From the IMG/VR virus record IMGVR_UViG_2124908030_000002: a stretch of 47,091 bases of DNA, one strand, 5' to 3'. Position 1 is the stretch's first letter; each line of letters begins with the position of its first letter. Under the pieces are notes generated by a model, which did no database searches, was not told where the DNA came from, and saw nothing but the letters and a program-made list of their open reading frames with translations. This document shows positions 2,471 through 8,558 of this stretch, piece after piece. Position numbers and translations under genes: made by a program. The DNA comes from an uncultured virus (IMG/VR IMGVR_UViG_2124908030_000002). Taxonomy: Duplodnaviria; Heunggongvirae; Uroviricota; Caudoviricetes; Thumleimavirales; Hafunaviridae.

Positions 2471-3433
2471 ATGGCACGTAGACACGAACTTCATACTGCT
2501 GACGGCAAGGATATTGACGAGATGCTGGAAATGGCTCGTCAGCTCGTTGACCGTTACAACGACGCTGACAAGCCGTTCCGAGAGATGTTCGCCGAGACTG
2601 TTTCCGAGCAGACGTTCTATCAGGAAGCAGAGCAGGACGACATCTATTGGGATGAGATTGCCGAGGGCGAGCAGCCTCGGACGATGCGCGACGACGAGTA
2701 CGACGACCGCTGGATGACCATTCGGTCTTCGACGTACTCGAAGGGACTCGGCATGACGCAGAAGTACATCCGGCGTACCGCGTCTGACGAGATTCTTCGG
2801 AAGCTCCGGAAGTTGCTCACGGGTGCGAAGAACACCGAAGAGCAGCTGATTTACCAGACCCTCGAAAACGGCATCATCGATGGGTCGGGCGCGTGGTACG
2901 ACATCAAGGACTACGGCGAGTATTCCTTCAGTCAGAACCACAACCACGTCTTCGACAGCACGGACGAGCTGTTCAGCGGAACTGCGAACGGAACCTCGCA
3001 CGAGGCGCACGAACACATCGAGTCGGCGAAGCGAGAGCTGACCCACCACGGCCTTGAGGGGCCGTTTGTGGCCCTCGTCTCGAACGAGTTCAAGCGCGAT
3101 ATGCGTGACGAGATTGCGTGGCAGGCTGACTACGACATCCCGATGGCTAACGGGATGCGCTCGGGCGACGTTCAGGACTTGGACATCGTTATCGATGGCG
3201 TCTCGCTTGTCGAGTCGCCGTGGATGAAGGGTGACAAGTTCTACCTCACCCAAGCGCAGAACGAGTCGCCGGTCAAGTTCCTCGAAGACCGCCCGGTTCA
3301 GGTCACTCGTCCGAACGGCGCGACCGTTCGGTCACCCGGCGACCTTCTCGGTGCGAACGCGACTGCTGACTACGGCGCTCGGATGGGCGACCCCCTTGCT
3401 GCGGTCAAGGTTGTCGCTGACGACATCAAGTAA
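2471..3433 (+). CDS. major capsid protein (HK97 fold)
   Basis: 320 aa; WDEIAEGEQP, YSKGLGMT and FSQNHNH patterns; strongly biased codon usage; position in head module. Confidence 0.8.
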   Translation: MARRHELHTADGKDIDEMLEMARQLVDRYNDADKPFREMFAETVSEQTFYQEAEQDDIYWDEIAEGEQPRTMRDDEYDDRWMTIRSSTYSKGLGMTQKYIRRTASDEILRKLRKLLTGAKNTEEQLIYQTLENGIIDGSGAWYDIKDYGEYSFSQNHNHVFDSTDELFSGTANGTSHEAHEHIESAKRELTHHGLEGPFVALVSNEFKRDMRDEIAWQADYDIPMANGMRSGDVQDLDIVIDGVSLVESPWMKGDKFYLTQAQNESPVKFLEDRPVQVTRPNGATVRSPGDLLGANATADYGARMGDPLAAVKVVADDIK

Positions 3434-3461: not shown

Positions 3462-3935
3462 ATGACTGACAAGACTGACGTGATGGCCGACGTGCGAGAA
3501 TTTACGGGATACACGTCGGAACTGGTATTGTCCCAAGACGGCCTCAAAACTGCTTACACACGCGCGAAGCGGCATATTGAGGTCAAAAAGTCTCTGCCTC
3601 CGGACTTCATTTACTTTAGCCCGGAGAAGCCGGAAGTCGAGAACGCGCTCTTCTGGTGGACGTGTATCTTCGTGAAGGTCGTGTTGGGCGACCTTGACGC
3701 TGAGGCGATTCAGGCCGGCGCAGTAGACCAGAACGCCCTGCTCGCAAAGGACAACAACGCGGTGACTGTGTGGCATCGGGAAGCCGAAAGCGCTCTTGGG
3801 GCCATGCTCCCCGAGGAAACGGTGAAGTCTTCCGCGCCTTCTCGCAGCGAACGCTCGTATGAACCCGGCAACTTCACGACCGGCGACTCTGCGGGTAGTG
3901 GCTCCACCGTTGACGCTGACGACTTCTCGATATGA
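3462..3935 (+). CDS. putative head-tail adaptor
   Basis: Directly after MCP; DVREFTGY start typical of adaptor proteins. Confidence 0.5.
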   Translation: MTDKTDVMADVREFTGYTSELVLSQDGLKTAYTRAKRHIEVKKSLPPDFIYFSPEKPEVENALFWWTCIFVKVVLGDLDAEAIQAGAVDQNALLAKDNNAVTVWHREAESALGAMLPEETVKSSAPSRSERSYEPGNFTTGDSAGSGSTVDADDFSI

Positions 3936-4294
3936 CGTATCGGTCAAAGTCAGTTGCGGCGACTCTTTTCAAACTTGGTCGTGTGGCGGGCATCAAGTCG
4001 CCCTCGACTACGGACGTTAATGACTTCGGCAACTCTGTTGAGTCGATGCCGGACACGTTTGACCGCGAAGTGATTGCGTTCAAGACGTATCCGAACAGGA
4101 ACACGCAGGTTGAAGCCAACATCGGGGACTTGGACCAAGACCGCCCGGTGTTCATGGTCCCGAAAGGCGACTCTCAGCCGGCGGTTCCGGCGGAAGGCGA
4201 CCACATCTTTTACGACGGCGATGAATACGAGGTAAAATCTCACACTCCGTATGATACTCATGTGGAGTTTTTCGGCGAGCCGGTAATCCACTGA
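3932..4294 (+). CDS. putative head-closure protein
   Basis: beta-rich 120 aa with EGDHIFYDGDEYEV motif; synteny. Confidence 0.55.
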   Translation: MTYRSKSVAATLFKLGRVAGIKSPSTTDVNDFGNSVESMPDTFDREVIAFKTYPNRNTQVEANIGDLDQDRPVFMVPKGDSQPAVPAEGDHIFYDGDEYEVKSHTPYDTHVEFFGEPVIH

Positions 4295-5729
4295 TGGTTG
4301 ACGTTGACATAGACGTTGAGGGGGCTACCAAAGTGGTTACGGCCCTCCGTGCCGGCCTCGATGAAGGCCTTGACGACGCCGGGCGCTACTTAATCAACGA
4401 AGGAGCTGACGTGGCTCAAGACGAGGTTGTTGGCGCTCGGAAGGTCTGGACTGAAGAAACGAAGAACAGCTTCGAGACTGATGTGTTCCGCTTCAACAGG
4501 GGCCACCACTGGAAGGGCCACATCATCAACACGGCAGAGCAGGCAGCAATTGTAGACGAGGGAATCGCCCCGGCAGGCGAGCATGAGAACCCTGACATCC
4601 GGATTCAGGACATCATGCCGTGGGTGGTCGCACACCTTTCTCCGGCTGATTACGACGGCGGAGACGGCGACCCCAACCTTACTGACTACAACGGCGGCGA
4701 CGGGCCTAGTGGCGCTGATTTGCTTCAGTTTGAAGACGACCAGAGGAACGTTGAGTACATCGACATCAGCGAGTTGGGTCCCCAAGAATCGGACTTTTCC
4801 TCGAAGTACGTCAAAGGAGCAAACATCTTCGATGGTCAGCGGGCGCTCTGGAAAAGCCACGAAGAAACCCGAAGAGACAGTCAAAAAGACACCGGAATCG
4901 CAAACGATATTGTGTGGAGTCATGCCCAACGAGTTGCGGGCTATGACTTAGGCCCCCGAAGCAAGCTCAAAACAGCTCAGACTGTTGACGGCGAAACTCC
5001 GGGGACGCTTAACGAGTTTGTTGATGGGGACCCAATCAACTCGGTCCTCAACATGAACGACAACGACCTCTATTTTGACGAAGACAAGGGGCGTCTTGTC
5101 AACTATATGTCCACTCACCCCGAGTGGTTTGCTAGGACGAACGCGCTAGATTACTTGGCCGGAAACAGCGACAGACACGGGAGTAACATCCTCGTTGATG
5201 CTGAAACCGGGAACCCTCGGGCATAGACAACGGCGGCATGAAGTTTGACGAGGGCCTTCACGCAGGAAATCTTCGGGGCCTGATGGACATGAACGCCTAC
5301 GATAGTTCTAATGACCCTGAAGTTCTGTTTGAAGAGTCCCAAGCCTTCTTGACCCGGACTGAAGAAGTTCTTGACGAGCTGCTTCAGGATGAAGACTTCA
5401 AAGAAGCAGTCATCAACAAGGTCAAAGCGATTCACGGGCCAGACTCAGTAGAGGCAGAGCGGATAGAAGATGTGATTGGTGAAGAGATTGGGCCGGGACA
5501 CGCTCTCTACGAGGGCGATACCGGCGTCCCTCTTTACAAGCGTCACATCCAAAAGGGACTCAACGTGAATAAAAGAGAATTTGACGTTCCGGTTCCCGAA
5601 GAAGACGAGACGGACATAACATATCGGAACGTAATTCCCGGCTCGGTTGATAATGTTGATGATGACGGCTCTGACGAATCATTAGGCAAGGCAAACGATA
5701 TACTTGATGATGTACTAGGAGACATCTAA
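4294..5729 (+). CDS. HK97 gp10-like neck protein N-half fused to a PI3/4-kinase/HipA-like kinase domain (ORFs 4294-5226 and 5238-5729 joined across a 1-nt frameshift)
   Basis: N-term matches gp10-like pattern (VDIDVEG...AAIVDEG.AP...IMPWV). Kinase motifs ALWK, GTLNEFVDG, LDYLAGNSDRHGSNILV. Adding one A at GCA(A)TAGAC (~5223) restores RAIDNGG in frame with the 5238 ORF. Confidence 0.7.
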
Positions 5730-5947
5730 TGATTCAAATCTACAAGTTCACGTCTGGCCGGTACGTCCTTCAGCTCGTCATAGACGAAGAAAAAGGAACC
5801 GTGCTTGGTTCTACAGACCTAGCAGACACATTCCGGCAAAAGTTCCAGTATCTCCGAGATAAGGGAATTGAGCCGGTAGAACATATGGACGGAATCAAAG
5901 ACCGCATCTATGCCAACTATCGCAACTTCTACTTCTGGGCGAAATGA
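5729..5947 (+). CDS. small hypothetical protein, candidate immunity/antitoxin for the kinase
   Basis: 72 aa, atypically non-acidic; coupled by TAATG and ATGA overlaps on both sides. Confidence 0.55.
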   Translation: MIQIYKFTSGRYVLQLVIDEEKGTVLGSTDLADTFRQKFQYLRDKGIEPVEHMDGIKDRIYANYRNFYFWAK

Positions 5948-6171
5948 CTGACGGGTGGGATTCTGACCTTCAGGACTTAGCCGACGAATACAGTCCGGGT
6001 TACGTGATTACTGCCTTCGCAGTCAAAAGGACGATGGAGAAGGAGGGCCGCCCCGGTATCCACTTCACGGAGACGACCGAGGCGTACCTGCGGCAGATTG
6101 GACCGATGCTCGTGAAGAACAAGGTTGAAAAGCACATGAACAGAGAACTGCGGAAGCGCGGCCTACAGTAG
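5944..6171 (+). CDS. C-terminal half of gp10-like neck/tail-completion protein
   Basis: ITAFAVKRTMEKEGRPGIHF matches the AF.I.R.I...G.PG..F end of gp10-like proteins. Confidence 0.6.
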   Translation: MTDGWDSDLQDLADEYSPGYVITAFAVKRTMEKEGRPGIHFTETTEAYLRQIGPMLVKNKVEKHMNRELRKRGLQ

Positions 6172-6176
6172 CTTTA

Positions 6177-6707
6177 ATGGATGAAACGGAGTTAATTAGC
6201 ACCCTTCAGTCACATCTGGCGCAACGACTCTCTGTTCCTGTACGAACAGTTGGGATGGACGATGAACGTCCGGTTCCGCTCGTCCTTATCGATGATTGGG
6301 ACACGAGCGACTTCAACGCCCACAACTCGGCTTTTGCCGGTGAAGCTGTGGGCGACTTCGATAACGACGGCAACCTAGAATACGAGCGATACCTGAACTT
6401 CGACTTCACCACTCGTGTTGAGCTGCTGATTCGGCACACCGACGAGGTGGATGTATCGAGGCTGAAGGAAGACGTGAAGATGATTTTCCGGCTGATTCGT
6501 GAGAACCCGCTACAGTTCCACGACGAAATGAAGCGATGTAGCTTGGGCGGCGGCGGAAATCCGACTCATAAATTCACGGAACCGAAAGAGTCGGAGCTGG
6601 TTGTGTCTGCCCGGTTCCACGGCGACCATACGGTCACTCTCACACCGAGTGACCTTCAAGAAAGTACGCTTGAACAAGTGAAGGACTCCTTCACATTCAA
6701 TCCGTAG
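6177..6707 (+). CDS. putative tail terminator
   Basis: L...L...L..PV.......PVPLV pattern; directly before sheath. Confidence 0.55.
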   Translation: MDETELISTLQSHLAQRLSVPVRTVGMDDERPVPLVLIDDWDTSDFNAHNSAFAGEAVGDFDNDGNLEYERYLNFDFTTRVELLIRHTDEVDVSRLKEDVKMIFRLIRENPLQFHDEMKRCSLGGGGNPTHKFTEPKESELVVSARFHGDHTVTLTPSDLQESTLEQVKDSFTFNP

Positions 6708-6721
6708 TTTTAGAAATTAAC

Positions 6722-8008
6722 ATGACTACTTACGGCGACACTCAAGAACCCGGAATTGTTACGGACCTTACCTCTTCGGCTGCGGTTTCGACCTCTGGTG
6801 AGGCTCCGAGTGACGTGGGGTACGTAGGTCAGGCAGACCTTAGTAATGCGACCAGCCCTGCTGACACTAGCACAGTCTATCAAGTAACGCGAGCATCGAA
6901 GGCCGTTGAATGGTTCGGGCCGACAGAATCGAGCCTGCTGACGAACGCCATCATCGATGCGCTGAACGAAGGAGCGTACCCGGTCTACGCTGTTGCTGCG
7001 GCTGAAAGTAGCATCAGCAGCGAAGACCACAGCGGCGTCGGAACCACGACGGTTTCGCTGGACGAAGGCCCGCTTCGGGAAGATGCCAGCACCGTCGAAG
7101 TCAACCTTGACGACACGCTTCAGTCGCCCACCATCGTCTACGACGACGTGAGCGGCTATTCTCCGGACCCCGGAGAAGCTTACGTCAATCCTGTTGACGC
7201 TGAAGTCGAAGTCAACTCTGTTCCGAGTTCGCTCCTGACGGTTTCGTACCAGAGCTTCGACTACGAGAGCGGCATCGACGTTCTCACCGATAACGCGCCC
7301 GACGTAATCGACTACCTGCTCCCGCTGTCGGAGAAGGCGTCGGTTGCTGACTACGCGAACGTCGCTGTTGCCAACATGGAATCCGAGTACGACCTTGCGC
7401 TGGCGCAGGTCGGAGCAGGAATCGATGTTGACCCGACAGGGTACACGCAGGACTACGACGACAGCCGGACGCAGACGGTCTACCCGACCCGCTTCGAGGA
7501 TGGAACCTCGGCGCTTGCGGCTTACGTTGGCATGAAGGCGGGGCTTGGACTTGGCGAGACGCCCATCAACAAGCGACTCACCACGAACAAGCGCCTTTCG
7601 ACCTCGCTCAACCGGGCGGAGCGCGGAAGCCTCGGTGACGCTAGCGTGGTCGTTCTGTCTGACGAGTCTCGTGGAGTCCGAGTCACCGACGACCCCACGA
7701 CTGTCTCGGAAAGCAACACCGACGAGCGGAACCTGAATTACGGCTTCAACCGGCTCGTTGCTGACTACATCATCGAGACGACCCGCGACAACCAGCGCCC
7801 CTTCATCGGGAAGCTGAACAGCCAGACGATTCGGAACACGCTAGAAGGCATGGTTGACGATAGCCTGACCGAGCTTCAGGAGTCGAACGTCGTTGTCAGC
7901 TACGACGTGAACATCCTGAAAGAAGATGCGGTGTCTGCCGGGCTTGAGATGAGCGTTGAGCTGGTCAAGCCGCTCCGCTTCATCGAGAACACCGTTACAG
8001 TCGAGTAA
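6722..8008 (+). CDS. tail sheath protein
   Basis: PGIVTD start, GYVGQA, WFG..S.LT.A...AL..GA, FIGKLN and VKPLRFI end. Confidence 0.85.
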   Translation: MTTYGDTQEPGIVTDLTSSAAVSTSGEAPSDVGYVGQADLSNATSPADTSTVYQVTRASKAVEWFGPTESSLLTNAIIDALNEGAYPVYAVAAAESSISSEDHSGVGTTTVSLDEGPLREDASTVEVNLDDTLQSPTIVYDDVSGYSPDPGEAYVNPVDAEVEVNSVPSSLLTVSYQSFDYESGIDVLTDNAPDVIDYLLPLSEKASVADYANVAVANMESEYDLALAQVGAGIDVDPTGYTQDYDDSRTQTVYPTRFEDGTSALAAYVGMKAGLGLGETPINKRLTTNKRLSTSLNRAERGSLGDASVVVLSDESRGVRVTDDPTTVSESNTDERNLNYGFNRLVADYIIETTRDNQRPFIGKLNSQTIRNTLEGMVDDSLTELQESNVVVSYDVNILKEDAVSAGLEMSVELVKPLRFIENTVTVE

Positions 8009-8036: not shown

Positions 8037-8558
8037 ATGGCACGAAATGGAACTGTTGACCGCGTAGAATCCGCTGCGAACATCACTCTGGTTGTTTCGC
8101 GCGGCAGTGAATCTGGTGTCACCTATTCGGGTGGCAGCTTTGACGAAGATGGCGGGAGCGATTCTTCGTACTTCCAGATTCCGATTTCGCGGCTCGACAC
8201 CACCAAAGAAGTAGAGATTTCCGAGATTCGGGAGTCGTCGCTGAAGGCCAGCGGCTACTCCATCACGAGCATTTCGTACAGCGGTACGATGATGTTCAAA
8301 GGCTCTCGGTTCACGAAGACGGTCCCTGACGGAGAGTCTGGCAGCGACGGCTCGGCTCCCATCAGCGACTTCCTGTATGATGACTACGGCGTTCCGCAGC
8401 CGATGACCATCAACATCAACCACGAGCTGACCGACGACCCCGAGCGGTATCTCCACGTTCTCGCTAACTCCGAGAGCTACGAGGTCCGGTCGGAGTCGGC
8501 CACGGAGACGGCCTTCGATTGGGTTGCGATGGACCGCGACAGCGACCAGCCGCAGTAA
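8037..8558 (+). CDS. tail tube protein
   Basis: beta-rich 173 aa immediately after sheath. Confidence 0.7.
   Translation: MARNGTVDRVESAANITLVVSRGSESGVTYSGGSFDEDGGSDSSYFQIPISRLDTTKEVEISEIRESSLKASGYSITSISYSGTMMFKGSRFTKTVPDGESGSDGSAPISDFLYDDYGVPQPMTININHELTDDPERYLHVLANSESYEVRSESATETAFDWVAMDRDSDQPQ

What the first reader, a model, noticed from the sequence alone, without database searches (positions are those of the whole stretch)
4294..6171. Neck gene split by a kinase + candidate immunity cassette: possible virion-delivered effector system
Seen: the gp10-like neck gene is in two pieces. The N-half runs through a DYDGGDG/DYNGGDG linker into a kinase-like domain (ALWK, GTLNEFV, DYLAGNSDRHGSNILV, AIDNG after a 1-nt correction). 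A 72-aa non-acidic ORF follows, then a separate ORF carrying the gp10 C-terminal motif. All are coupled by TAATG/ATGA overlaps, and the insert looks more AT-rich toward its 3' end. Known: DRH..N and IDxG are the catalytic and Mg-binding motifs of PI3/4-kinase/HipA-like kinases, and phage MuF head proteins carry C-terminal toxins followed by immunity genes. Inference: an archaeal-virus analogue using a gp10-like neck protein as carrier, possibly polymorphic, acting in host takeover, anti-defence or superinfection exclusion.
Basis: partly seen in the sequence, partly recalled or inferred. Interest (0 to 1): 0.9.

Follow-up and report, generated by a model that had tools for sequence, protein, structure and literature searches.

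The report
Split tail-completion gene carrying a kinase
In this haloarchaeal tailed virus, the gene for a small protein expected to sit inside the neck is cut in two, and a swappable cassette (here a kinase plus a tiny partner gene) lies between the halves, which suggests a possible way of injecting enzymes into the host together with the viral DNA.

Summary
ORF 4294-5226 is the N-half (aa 1-117) of an HK97 gp10/Ne1-type tail completion protein (TCP). A Gly/Asp linker joins it to a PI3/4-kinase-like domain. The 75-aa ORF 5944-6171 is the TCP's C-half: 39 relatives of about 200 aa carry both halves in one chain.

The TAG at 5224 is probably a record error. Contigs from all 3 runs covering that place have one extra A, which restores a ~478-aa protein, as in every relative.

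An AlphaFold model of an unsplit relative matches phage 80alpha gp51 (Z 10.3), a single-copy protein inside the neck between the DNA end and the tape measure.

In a sample of 30 loci chosen by their sheath gene, 13 have an unsplit TCP and 17 are split. The split ones carry one of three unrelated cargos: kinase, an HExxH family, or a 1037-aa family. Kinase and HExxH cargos each have their own small downstream ORF. The cassette borders coincide with the ends of the two halves.

Already public: the 'phosphatidylinositol kinase' label on HSTV-2-group gp16, and the Ne1 N-terminus of HF2 Nep1. My searches found no description of the split carrier with exchangeable cargo.

Delivery into the host and an immunity role for the 72-aa ORF are inference.

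The parts
3932..4294 (+). Head completion protein (context; SPP1 gp16-like position), upstream neighbour coupled by a TGATG overlap
   Evidence: Pfam Phage_attach E 1.2e-4, below cut-off. phrog_17802 E 2.4e-19. The syntenic HRTV-2 gp15 is annotated 'SPP1 gp16-like head completion protein'.
4294..4644 (+). N-half of the tail completion protein (HK97 gp10/Ne1 type), aa 1-117: long N-terminal helix, beta-hairpin region, PWV helix
   Evidence: An N-half HMM built from unsplit relatives matches aa 2-115 at E 3e-32. It aligns to the first ~120 residues of unsplit ~200-aa proteins. Relatives P0092 and P0094 pass the PF04883 cut-off.
4645..4716 (+). Gly/Asp-rich linker (ADYDGGDGDPNLTDYNGGDGPSGA)
   Evidence: Read directly from the sequence. 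Every cargo family starts with a G/S/D-rich stretch right after the PWV..L motif.
4717..5729 (+). PI3/4-kinase-like atypical kinase cargo. In this record it is in two frames (4717-5223 and 5223-5729). K187 at 4852-4854, D293 at 5170-5172, N298 at 5185-5187, Mg-binding Asp of IDNGG at 5226-5228; acidic C-terminal motif NDILDDVLGDI.
   Evidence: Pfam PI3_PI4_kinase 18.6 bits, below the 27.1 cut-off. Relatives P0011 (48 bits) and P0070 (47.1 bits) pass it. A model of the 75%-identical P0004 matches only kinases, best PI4KII-alpha at Z 11.9, rmsd 4.6, 238 aligned. Catalytic residues are conserved in 26 of 26 sequences, the Lys in 22 of 26.
5222..5226 (+). Frame break: one A is missing relative to public contigs, which creates the TAG at 5224-5226
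   Evidence: An extra A behind 5222 appears in contigs of 3 of 3 covering runs. 7 of 7 close relatives read straight through here.
5729..5947 (+). 72-aa non-acidic ORF found only beside kinase cargo (candidate partner: inhibitor/immunity or loading chaperone)
   Evidence: Homologous to HRTV-2 gp17 (E 9e-6), to L003 1709-1936 and to P0180. The family HMM hits only kinase-bearing loci. pI 7.96. No Pfam family, and it does not match either TCP-half HMM.
5944..6171 (+). C-half of the tail completion protein as a separate 75-aa ORF (three helices, including the long C-terminal helix of the fold)
   Evidence: 61% identical to the C-terminal part of unsplit P0040 and 63% to that of L007. C-half HMM E 1e-30. 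Homologous to HRTV-2 gp18 (E 2e-11) and Hardycor2 HrrHc2_095 (E 5e-10).
6177..6707 (+). Tail terminator (context; SPP1 gp17-like), downstream neighbour
   Evidence: phrog_12281 E 1.8e-36. The syntenic HRTV-2 gp19 is annotated 'SPP1 gp17-like tail completion protein'.

Best explanation
**What it is.** The locus is one allele of a cassette site that lies inside the tail completion protein (TCP) gene of hafunavirus-like haloarchaeal myoviruses. The TCP belongs to the HK97 gp10 / SPP1 gp16.1 / 80alpha gp51 type.

**Shown**
- The TCP gene is split. Its N-half (aa 1-117) is translated in frame, through a Gly/Asp linker, into a ~340-aa PI3/4-kinase-like kinase with a complete catalytic set. A 72-aa ORF found only beside kinase cargo follows. 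The C-half is then made as a separate 75-aa protein by coupled translation.
- The stop inside the kinase is most likely an error of this record.
- Related viruses have, at the same site, either an unsplit TCP or other cargos (an HExxH family with its own ~100-aa ORF, or a 1037-aa family). The exchange borders lie exactly at the end of the N-half and the start of the C-half.

**Inferred**
- The two halves reassemble into one TCP fold, so the cargo is tethered to a protein present once per virion inside the neck/tail lumen, between the DNA end and the tape measure.
- The cargo leaves with the tape measure and the DNA, and so reaches the host cytoplasm at the moment of genome entry. There the kinase phosphorylates a host target, more likely a protein than a phosphoinositide, to aid takeover or counter defence.
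- The 72-aa protein binds the kinase, either silencing it in the producing cell or keeping it fit for loading.
- The two TCP halves serve as homology arms for swapping cassettes between co-infecting viruses.
For: **Split**
- 39 relatives of 171-208 aa have both halves in one chain. 0 of 70 cargo-bearing relatives have a C-half, and all 70 have the N-half at their N-terminus.

**Fold**
- The AF2 model of unsplit P0040 (pLDDT 91.3) matches 9mu2_P at Z 10.3, rmsd 2.7, with 107 of 109 residues aligned. The next row scores 5.7.
- 9mu2_P is 80alpha gp51. It is a monomer inside the neck that caps the DNA end and pairs with the tape-measure N-termini. The authors equate it with HK97 gp10, SPP1 gp16.1 and lambda gpZ, and say it presumably leaves with the tape measure and the DNA (bioRxiv 10.1101/2024.12.10.627806, sections 8 and 9 read).
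- VIRFAM calls the first 129 aa of HF2 Nep1 HK97 gp10/Ne1 (PMC7230728, section 3.5 read).
- PF04883 is passed by relatives P0092 (24.9 bits) and P0094 (23.6 bits) against a cut-off of 21.4.

**Kinase**
- All 50 rows shown by VIA are kinases: PI4KII-alpha Z 11.9, Fam20 11.2, CtkA 10.9.
- D292, N297, D311 and E204 (numbering of relative P0004) are kept in 26 of 26 sequences, and K186 in 22 of 26, down to about 20% identity.

**Reads**
- An extra A appears in 3 of 3 covering runs.

**Cassette behaviour**
- 30 loci were drawn by their sheath gene. Of these, 13 are unsplit, 2 carry the kinase, 9 the HExxH family and 6 the 1037-aa family.
- The small ORF is present beside the kinase in 2 of 2 sampled loci, and also in the window and HRTV-2. 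It is present beside the HExxH family in 9 of 9 and beside the 1037-aa family in 0 of 6.
- L026 and L029 are 90.5% identical in DNA up to about aa 117 of the gene and 91% identical from the first base of the C-half ORF, with nothing alike in between.
- On the sheath tree the window sits inside a clade of unsplit forms (sister L007, support 100/97). Cargo types are interleaved, needing 6 changes where 3 is the minimum.
Against: - No direct evidence exists that the fusion is in virions or is ejected. I could not see virion proteomics for HSTV-2 (paper not held).
- TCP location is not universal. T5 p143 sits on the side of the tail tip (bioRxiv 10.1101/2024.10.16.618446, abstract only). No myovirus or archaeal TCP has been located.
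- A folded ~35-kDa kinase, let alone a ~100-kDa cargo, would not fit folded in a lumen of about 36 A (the width given for 80alpha). The model therefore needs an unfolded or extended stored state.
- The window's own sequences do not reach the Pfam cut-offs. Membership rests on relatives and folds.
- The kinase model has mean pLDDT 54 and comes from a relative, not the window's own protein.
- The 1037-aa family has no small ORF, so a partner is not a general requirement.
- The N-half is more diverged from the nearest unsplit relatives (39-46%) than the C-half is (53-63%). The halves may therefore no longer fit the ancestral fold exactly.
- The read evidence comes from low-depth contigs of one study. 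One contig also shows a 1-base loss at 5790, in an A-run inside the 72-aa ORF, so such contigs do carry errors or variants.
Confidence: 0.55

Rival explanations
1. Tethered but not injected. The N-half-cargo fusion works in the producing cell or on the particle, and never enters the next host. It could, for example, be a late kinase that modifies virion or host proteins during assembly, an appendage near the neck or tail tip, or an assembly factor cleaved off at the linker.
For: - T5's TCP is outside the tube, at the tail tip (abstract only).
- The cargos are too large to sit folded in a tail lumen (width).
- SPP1 gp16.1 also has an assembly role at the tail-to-head interface (PMC11099176, abstract).
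- The Gly/Asp linker is conserved in the window's subfamily (invariant P116-A117-D118-Y119, G121-G122 in 7 sequences), so it could be a processing site.
Against: - The fold match is to 80alpha gp51, which is internal, not to T5 p143.
- An enzyme needing ATP has no obvious use outside a cell.
- Enzymatic cargos with their own partner ORFs that are swapped often look more like effectors than structural appendages.
- No protease site was tested.
Confidence: 0.2
2. Moron or selfish insertion. The cassette landed in a tolerant loop of the TCP gene. The in-frame fusion is an accident of the insertion site, and the kinase (with the 72-aa ORF) acts as an ordinary cytoplasmic late protein, for example in superinfection exclusion or as a toxin-antitoxin-like addiction pair, with no link to TCP function.
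For: - GC is lower in the insert (0.45-0.53 against 0.55-0.62).
- The closest relatives by sheath have an unsplit gene.
- Stand-alone 234-276-aa kinases of the same Pfam family exist.
Against: - The cargo is fused in frame to the N-half in 70 of 70 proteins, and in 15 of 15 loci whose 5' end is visible. This holds across three unrelated cargo families.
- No case has the cargo as a free ORF between two halves.
- The C-half is kept as an ORF in 16 of 17 split loci.
- This regularity points to selection for the tether.
Confidence: 0.15
3. Decaying gene. The TAG at 5224 is real, the kinase is truncated after its catalytic loop, and the locus is a remnant.
For: The window record itself has the stop.
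Against: - An extra A restores the frame in contigs of 3 of 3 covering runs. Two of these contigs are otherwise identical to the window.
- The downstream frame stays open for 168 codons and keeps the conserved family motifs.
- No other defect is seen in the module.
Confidence: 0.05

Closest known systems
Tail completion protein (TCP/Ne1): 80alpha gp51, SPP1 gp16.1, HK97 gp10, lambda gpZ
   Same: - Same gene position, between the head-completion and tail-terminator genes.
- Same fold in the unsplit relative (Z 10.3 to 9mu2_P).
- Relatives pass PF04883.
   Different: - Here the fold is encoded in two ORFs with a cargo fused to the first.
- The archaeal protein is about 200 aa against 109-150 aa, with extra helices where the split lies (secondary structure; my reading).
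- Its place in the particle is unknown.
Mincapvirus gp16-gp17-gp18 (HSTV-2, HRTV-7, HRTV-2, HRTV-11, HCTV-6, HCTV-15)
   Same: - Same four-gene layout.
- All three products are homologous: gp16 26% identical over 97% of ORF1 (E 6e-20 pairwise), gp17 E 9e-6, gp18 E 2e-11.
- gp16 is already annotated 'phosphatidylinositol kinase'.
   Different: - Distant: sheath 51% identical.
- Those records annotate gp17 and gp18 as hypothetical and do not mark gp16 as a TCP fusion.
- The window's virus belongs to a clade that otherwise has unsplit TCPs.
HF1/HF2-group Nep1 (HrrHF2_575, HrrHc2_090)
   Same: - An N-terminal ~129-aa Ne1/HK97 gp10 domain followed by a long divergent remainder. The authors called this curious (PMC7230728, section 3.5).
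- A separate C-half ORF follows directly.
   Different: - The cargo is an unrelated 900-aa sequence with no Pfam family.
- There is no small partner ORF.
- The paper does not describe the split or the C-half.
MuF-type polymorphic toxins of temperate phages (recalled from memory: Jamet et al. 2017; not seen in a call)
   Same: A conserved virion-protein domain at the N-terminus, unrelated C-terminal enzymatic domains exchanged at a sharp junction, and a small cognate gene downstream.
   Different: - The carrier is a tail-lumen TCP, not a head protein.
- The carrier gene is itself split, and its second half resumes after the cassette.
- The hosts are archaea.
- Toxicity and immunity are untested.
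Tape measure proteins with built-in enzymes (T5 pb2 peptidase, TM4 Rpf motif; recalled from memory, not seen in a call)
   Same: A catalytic domain carried on a tail-lumen protein that leaves the tail at infection.
   Different: There the enzyme is part of the tape measure and acts on the cell wall. Here it hangs on the TCP and is a cytoplasm-type enzyme (ATP-dependent kinase).
Atypical kinases PI4KII-alpha, Fam20/Golgi casein kinase, H. pylori CtkA, HipA
   Same: - Kinase fold (Z 11.9, 11.2, 10.9 and 9.0).
- DRHxxN catalytic loop and a DxG Mg site aligned to Tel1.
   Different: - 10-16% identity.
- No lipid-binding or HipB-type context.
- The domain is minimal, about 290 aa.
- Substrate unknown.

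Membership tests
HK97 gp10-like / tail completion protein (Pfam PF04883, Virfam Ne1) | Match to the PF04883 profile above its gathering score (21.4 bits) | tested here: inconclusive
   - The window's N-half gives no hit at E <= 0.1.
- Relatives tied to it by the N-half profile (E 1e-31 to 1e-35) pass: P0092 at 24.9 bits and P0094 at 23.6 bits.
- P0124 (20.3 bits) and P0085 (17.1 bits) fall just below.
- P0166, P0167 and P0168 carry a precomputed PF04883.
HK97 gp10-like / tail completion protein (Pfam PF04883, Virfam Ne1) | TCP fold: long N-terminal helix, loop with beta-hairpin and short helix, long C-terminal helix | tested here: met
   - The model of unsplit relative P0040 (pLDDT 91.3) matches 80alpha gp51 (9mu2_P) at Z 10.3, rmsd 2.7, 107 of 109 aligned, with the next row at 5.7.
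- The window's two ORFs align to the two parts of such proteins at 38-63% identity.
- Foldseek found nothing for this model.
HK97 gp10-like / tail completion protein (Pfam PF04883, Virfam Ne1) | Gene lies between the head completion gene and the tail terminator / tube genes | tested here: met
   The order is head completion 3932-4294, TCP pieces 4294-6171, terminator 6177-6707, sheath, tube. The order is the same in HRTV-2.
HK97 gp10-like / tail completion protein (Pfam PF04883, Virfam Ne1) | Tail-associated minor virion protein needed for head-tail joining and correct DNA routing | not testable with these tools
   Known for SPP1 gp16.1 (PMC11099176, abstract). There are no data for any archaeal virus.
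PI3_PI4_kinase (Pfam PF00454) | Match to the profile above its gathering score (27.1 bits) | tested here: inconclusive
   - The window scores 18.6 bits, P0004 20.1 and HRTV-2 gp16 25.7. All are below the cut-off.
- Family members P0011 (48 bits) and P0070 (47.1 bits) pass.
- More distant profile hits score up to 183.8 bits.
PI3_PI4_kinase (Pfam PF00454) | Catalytic loop DRHxxN and Mg-binding Asp (DFG-equivalent), with ATP-binding Lys and helix-C Glu | tested here: met
   - The window has K187, D293-R294-H295, N298 and the Asp of IDNGG.
- Over 26 sequences the Asp, Asn, Asp and Glu are each kept in 26 of 26, and the Lys in 22 of 26.
- The motif aligns to the Tel1 catalytic loop.
PI3_PI4_kinase (Pfam PF00454) | Protein-kinase-like two-lobe fold | tested here: met
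   - This uses the model of 75%-identical P0004, residues 141-432.
- VIA top 50 rows are all kinases, best PI4KII-alpha at Z 11.9, rmsd 4.6, 238 aligned.
- Foldseek gives 5 matches at E <= 0.001, all kinases.
- Model confidence is only moderate: mean pLDDT 54, with the kinase part mostly 50-94.
PI3_PI4_kinase (Pfam PF00454) | Phosphorylates phosphatidylinositol | not testable with these tools
   The label in GenBank records appears to rest on homology. From general knowledge, inositol lipids are not major haloarchaeal lipids, so a protein or small-molecule substrate seems more likely. This is inference.
Polymorphic toxin/effector with cognate immunity (MuF-like logic) | Conserved N-terminal carrier domain joined at a sharp border to unrelated C-terminal domains | tested here: met
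   - HJTV-2 gp16 and Hardycor2_090 are 75% identical over aa 1-130 and unrelated after that.
- In DNA, L026 and L029 are 90.5% identical up to about aa 117 and 91% identical from the C-half start codon onward.
- There are three cargo clusters of 40, 28 and 2 proteins.
Polymorphic toxin/effector with cognate immunity (MuF-like logic) | A small gene directly downstream that changes with the C-terminal domain | tested here: met
   - The 72-aa family occurs only beside the kinase: window, L001/L019, L003 and the P0180 contig.
- The HExxH family always has its own 77-106-aa ORF, in 9 of 9 loci.
- Not universal: the 1037-aa family has none in 0 of 6 sampled loci.
Polymorphic toxin/effector with cognate immunity (MuF-like logic) | The C-terminal domain is toxic and is neutralised by binding the downstream protein | not testable with these tools
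No experiment is available.
HipA-type toxin kinase | Match to HipA profiles and a HipB-type antitoxin context | tested here: not met
   - The window and its close relatives give no HipA-family Pfam hit.
- Fold likeness is only Z 8.0-9.0, below PI4KII-alpha, Fam20 and CtkA.
- The downstream 72-aa ORF has no Pfam family.

The most novel reading that the evidence does not exclude
Archaeal tailed viruses have a modular injection platform. The single tail completion protein in the tail lumen is split, so that any enzyme cassette can be spliced between its halves by homologous recombination. Cassettes seen here are a kinase, an HExxH peptidase-like domain and a 900-aa unknown. The cargo is stored unfolded on the TCP next to the DNA end and enters the host ahead of the genome. 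The small cassette-specific ORFs are loading chaperones or inhibitors. This would be a new effector-delivery route, distinct from head internal proteins and MuF toxins, and it would also show for a contractile-tailed virus that the TCP is ejected.
Probability: 0.4. Interest if true: 0.9.

Novelty: new variant of a known kind. Interest (0 to 1): 0.8.

Why it matters
**Relevance to TCP biology.** The TCP was the last common tail protein without a known place in the particle. It was located only in 2024-25, in one staphylococcal phage. A natural series of TCPs split and loaded with exchangeable enzymes gives a handle on what the protein does at genome entry and whether it is ejected.

**Relevance to archaeal viruses.** No virion-delivered effector of an archaeal tailed virus is known to me (recalled; not searched as such). 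Here three cargo types sit in cultured, tractable viruses: HSTV-2/HRTV-7, the HF1/HF2 group, and HJTV-2. Proteomics, cryo-EM and genetics can therefore test the idea directly.

**Annotation.**
- Small 'hypothetical' genes between the long gene and the tail terminator are the second half of a structural protein.
- The 'phosphatidylinositol kinase' label on gp16 hides a carrier fusion.
- A structural gene can be a recombination site for accessory cargo.

Tried and rejected
**Searches that found little or nothing**
- DNA search of 3900-6800 against 50,697 phage records: no match.
- Pattern-based locus searches seeded on the kinase protein: none with ORF1; one locus each with alignment A2 in viral contigs and in metagenome contigs.
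- The unsplit-TCP alignment was too diverse for the pattern search (error).
- The sheath alignment found nothing in genome contigs, so proviruses were not sampled.
- No whole genome is held for the window.
- Sequence profiles against PDB chains gave nothing significant for either the kinase protein or the TCP. The Tel1 motif alignment (E 0.13) is only illustrative.
- Foldseek on the TCP model: no match at E <= 0.001. Only the exhaustive VIA search found 9mu2_P.
- 72-aa ORF: no Pfam family; a weak match to a PHROG of unknown function (E 0.018); only one relative in the word-based search; Atlas gave no usable hit, and its own model has pLDDT 0.50.
- Atlas on the HExxH cargo: best score 0.77, below the level reached by shuffled proteins. 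I followed only the motif, and name no peptidase family.
- Earlier findings of this scan: none.

**Readings I rejected**
- Programmed -1 frameshift at 5223. The contigs have the extra base, relatives are unbroken, and I see no X XXY YYZ slippery site in GGGAACCCTCGGGCATAG.
- The 72-aa ORF as a third piece of the TCP. Neither half-HMM hits it, and the two halves already account for the whole unsplit protein.
- The N-half travelling with the kinase between clades. The window's N-half is closer to its own clade (39-46%) than to Mincapvirus (31%), so this is not supported. The N-half is nevertheless more diverged than the C-half.

**Literature**
- Searches for 'phosphatidylinositol kinase'+HSTV-2 (0 papers), 'tail completion protein'+'polymorphic toxin' (2 unrelated papers), 'HK97 gp10'+toxin (15 papers, 10 listed, none on fusions judging by title and abstract), and 'tail completion protein'+fusion+'kinase domain' (0 papers).
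- The main text of PMC8651126 has no 'gp10', 'Ne1', 'neck' or 'tail completion', and 'kinase' appears only for thymidylate kinase (passages). Its supplementary tables were not opened and may hold the gp16 annotation.
- The HSTV-2 virion-protein paper was not held under the id I recalled.


Full report
**1. What is in the sequence**

The window is the structural module of a tailed haloarchaeal virus. Its gene order is:
- major capsid protein, 2471-3433
- a 157-aa connector protein, 3462-3935
- head completion protein, 3932-4294
- the locus in question, 4294-6171
- tail terminator, 6177-6707
- sheath, 6722-8008
- tube, 8037-8558

The nearest cultured viruses are Hafunaviridae, with the sheath about 50% identical. 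There is no DNA-level match to 50,697 phage records.

- the four ORFs and their TGATG, TAATG and ATGA overlaps
- the DYDGGDG/DYNGGDG linker
- the kinase motifs ALWK, GTLNEFV and DYLAGNSDRHGSNILV in ORF1, and IDNGG in the -1 frame from 5223
- a 72-aa ORF with pI 7.96 among products of pI 4.0-4.7
- a GC dip to 0.45-0.47 at 5550-6000

**2. The stop codon inside the kinase**

All 7 close relatives found by the word-based search are unbroken proteins of 455-484 aa. They read ...GNPRAIDxGG... exactly across the window's break.

I laid public contigs from four runs of one hypersaline-lake study on 4600-5900. The single contig covering the place in each of X1, X2 and X3 has an extra A behind 5222. X4 does not cover it. 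The X2 and X3 contigs are otherwise identical to the window.

With that A, the frame runs from 4294 to 5729 and gives about 478 aa. The TAG is therefore most likely an error or a minor variant of this record, not a truncated kinase and not a programmed frameshift.

Caveats:
- The contigs are of low depth (2.2-6.5), and they may come from the window's own sample.
- One X1 contig also lacks a base in the A-run at 5790 inside the 72-aa ORF, while X2 and X4 agree with the window there.

**3. The gene really is split**

A profile of the unbroken relatives was run over 1.84 billion representatives. It gave 216 hits at E <= 0.001, of which 150 were listed. They fall into four groups:
- N-domain plus kinase
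- N-domain plus other long sequences
- kinase domains in other proteins
- proteins of 134-208 aa

Most of the short proteins (171-208 aa; four of 90-142 aa have only the N-half) consist of the N-domain followed directly by a region that matches the window's 75-aa ORF. That ORF is 61% identical to the C-terminal part of P0040.

I then ran local HMMs of the two halves over all proteins fetched up to that point:
- 39 proteins of 171-208 aa have both halves.
- All 70 proteins with at least 100 residues beyond the N-half have the N-half at their N-terminus and no C-half anywhere.

So the ancestral-type protein is one chain of about 200 aa. Whenever a cargo is present, the chain ends with the cargo and the C-half is a separate gene.

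**4. What the split protein is**

The AlphaFold model of unsplit P0040 (40-sequence alignment) has pLDDT 91.3. Its elements are a long N-terminal helix, a beta-hairpin region, short helices and a long C-terminal helix.

Foldseek found nothing for it. The exhaustive aligner found one outlier: 9mu2 chain P, at Z 10.3, rmsd 2.7, with 107 of 109 residues aligned over model residues 12-193. The next row scores 5.7.

That chain is residues 7-115 of 80alpha gp51, the tail completion protein (TCP). The preprint describing it reports the following (bioRxiv 10.1101/2024.12.10.627806; abstract, section 8 and part 1 of section 9 read):
- gp51 is a monomer inside the neck.
- Its loop caps the DNA end.
- Its hairpin pairs with the N-termini of three tape-measure chains.
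- Its two long helices bundle with theirs.
- It is equated with HK97 gp10, SPP1 gp16.1 and lambda gpZ.

Three further lines agree with this assignment:
- Relatives P0092 and P0094 pass the PF04883 cut-off in their N-domain. Three unsplit relatives carry a precomputed PF04883.
- VIRFAM was reported to call the first 129 aa of HF2 Nep1 HK97 gp10/Ne1 (PMC7230728, section 3.5).
- SPP1 gp16.1 is needed for joining tails to heads and for routing DNA into the cytoplasm (PMC11099176, abstract and section 12).

The protein is better described as the TCP than as a neck ring.

The split lies in the loop after helix 111-121 of the model. That places the C-terminal helix of the fold in the 75-aa ORF (my reading of the secondary structure).

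**5. The cargo is a kinase**

The window's own Pfam score for PI3_PI4_kinase is below the cut-off: 18.6 bits against 27.1. Family members P0011 (48 bits) and P0070 (47.1 bits) pass.

The model of P0004, which is 75% identical to the window, is only moderate: mean pLDDT 54, N-domain under 50, kinase part mostly 50-94. Even so, residues 141-432 match only kinases:
- Foldseek gives 5 matches at E <= 0.001, all kinases.
- All 50 rows shown by the exhaustive aligner are kinases. The best are PI4KII-alpha (Z 11.9, rmsd 4.6, 238 aligned), Fam20 (11.2) and H. pylori CtkA (10.9). HipA scores 9.0.

Across 26 N-half-kinase proteins, down to about 20% identity, the catalytic Asp, the Asn, the Mg-binding Asp and the helix-C Glu are each kept in 26 of 26, and the Lys in 22 of 26. 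That argues for an active enzyme.

The substrate is unknown. The 'phosphatidylinositol kinase' label of GenBank gp16 appears to rest on homology only.

**6. It is a cassette site**

To sample loci without bias toward the kinase, I fetched loci by their sheath gene, which gave 30 IMG/VR loci. I then scored the TCP region of each:

| State of the TCP gene | Loci (of 30) |
|---|---|
| Unsplit | 13 |
| Split, kinase cargo | 2 |
| Split, HExxH cargo family (two of them cut at the contig's 5' end) | 9 |
| Split, 1037-aa family of the HF1/HF2 group | 6 |

- **HExxH family.** It is the 40-protein cluster. 32 of its 40 members have one HExxH motif, aligned in a single column as T..HE..H.
- **Fusion.** The cargo is fused in frame to the N-half in all 15 loci whose 5' end is visible.
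- **C-half.** A separate 62-75-aa C-half ORF follows in 16 of 17 split loci. The exception, L003, also lacks the start of the next gene and has a broken sheath.
- **Small intervening ORF.** It depends on the cargo:
  - The 72-aa family is found only beside the kinase: the window, HRTV-2/HSTV-2, L003, and the contig of P0004/P0180.
  - Every HExxH locus has its own acidic 77-106-aa ORF, 9 of 9. These ORFs are alike within sub-groups.
  - The 1037-aa family has none, 0 of 6.
- **Borders.** HJTV-2 gp16 and Hardycor2_090 are 75% identical over aa 1-130 and unrelated after that. In DNA, L026 and L029 are 90.5% identical up to about codon 117 of the gene and 91% identical again from the first base of the C-half ORF, with nothing alike in between.
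- **Tree.** On the sheath tree the window sits inside a clade of unsplit viruses, sister to L007 with support 100/97. The other kinase virus, HSTV-2, lies outside that clade. The HExxH and 1037-aa cargos are interleaved among near-identical sheaths. This needs 6 changes where 3 is the minimum, and 0 of 200 shuffles score as low.

The cassette has therefore been exchanged repeatedly, with the two TCP halves as the natural homology arms. The homology-arm role is inference.

**7. How it most likely works**

Shown: the architecture, the folds, the conserved catalytic site, the cargo-specific small ORFs and the recombination borders.

Inferred:
- The halves reassemble.
- The cargo is thereby tethered to a single-copy protein in the tail lumen next to the DNA end.
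- The cargo enters the host with the tape measure and the DNA.
- The kinase acts early on a host target.
- The 72-aa protein binds the kinase as an inhibitor or a loading chaperone.

The constant in-frame fusion across three unrelated cargos is the main argument that the tether matters.

The main difficulties are:
- **Cargo size.** A folded kinase would not fit a channel of about 36 A, so an unfolded stored state is needed. Such a state is assumed for enzyme domains in tape measures (recalled, not from a call).
- **TCP location is not universal.** T5 p143 is on the tail tip (abstract only).
- **No proteomics.** I could see no virion proteomics for any of these viruses.

I put the full mechanism at about 0.55 and the architectural part above 0.9. 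The rivals are: tethered but not injected (0.2), a moron with an accidental fusion (0.15), and a decaying gene (0.05).

**8. Novelty**

Already public:
- The kinase label on Mincapvirus gp16.
- The Ne1 N-terminus with a 'curiously' divergent remainder in HF2-group Nep1.

In four literature searches and in the passages of PMC8651126 I found no description of any of the following:
- that the TCP is split, with its second half encoded after the cargo
- that the site holds exchangeable enzyme cassettes with their own small genes
- that the carrier is the internal single-copy TCP

The closest known logic is that of MuF-type polymorphic toxins (recalled, not from a call). I rate the finding a new variant of a known kind, with high interest because cultured viruses carry all three cargo types.

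Noticed in passing
L005 1728-4193 (HJTV-2 gp16); also L020, L021, L028-L032, L034, L035: The largest cargo family on the split TCP (40 proteins) has a single HExxH motif in 32 of 40 members, aligned in one column as T..HE..H. It is probably a zincin-like peptidase domain. It always comes with its own acidic 77-106-aa ORF before the C-half. There is no Pfam hit, and the fold was not predicted.
   Followed up: partly
L002 1610-4723 (Hardycor2 HrrHc2_090); L006, L023-L027, L033: The HF1/HF2-group cargo (1037-1038 aa) has no Pfam family and no HExxH motif. The C-half ORF follows it directly, with no small ORF in between.
   Followed up: partly
window 5690-5726 and the C-termini of the kinase-cargo proteins: Kinase cargos end in a conserved acidic amphipathic motif (for example NDILDDVLGDI, IDDLMDDMFGDLE, VDELLDELLG), kept down to about 20% identity. 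It could be a docking peptide, perhaps for the non-acidic 72-aa protein.
   Followed up: no
window 5790-5794: One public contig (run X1, depth 6.2) lacks one A of the A5 run inside the 72-aa ORF. Contigs of X2 and X4 agree with the window. This is either a variant or a contig error.
   Followed up: no
L003 1936-2320 and 2337-3280: This kinase-bearing contig has no C-half ORF in any frame, lacks the first part of the tail terminator gene, and has the sheath in two ORFs. It is either a defective genome or a faulty assembly.
   Followed up: partly
proteins P0011, P0015, P0020: Longer variants exist. P0011 (793 aa) matches the kinase twice. P0015 (997 aa) and P0020 (833 aa) have the N-half, then about 300-370 extra residues, then the kinase.
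   Followed up: no
proteins P0041-P0075: The kinase profile also finds giant proteins (987-3184 aa) with two to four PI3_PI4_kinase-like stretches. Three of them also have a NUDIX domain. Their origin is unknown.
   Followed up: no
window 3800-5989 against L007: DNA similarity to the nearest unsplit relative stops at about 3800, inside the 157-aa connector gene, and resumes at about 5989, 45 bases into the C-half. The exchanged tract in this lineage may therefore also include the head completion gene and the N-half.
   Followed up: partly
window 5944-6171: The C-half is nearly neutral (pI 6.7) in an otherwise very acidic proteome. This fits the DNA-facing positive surface described for 80alpha gp51.
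   Followed up: no
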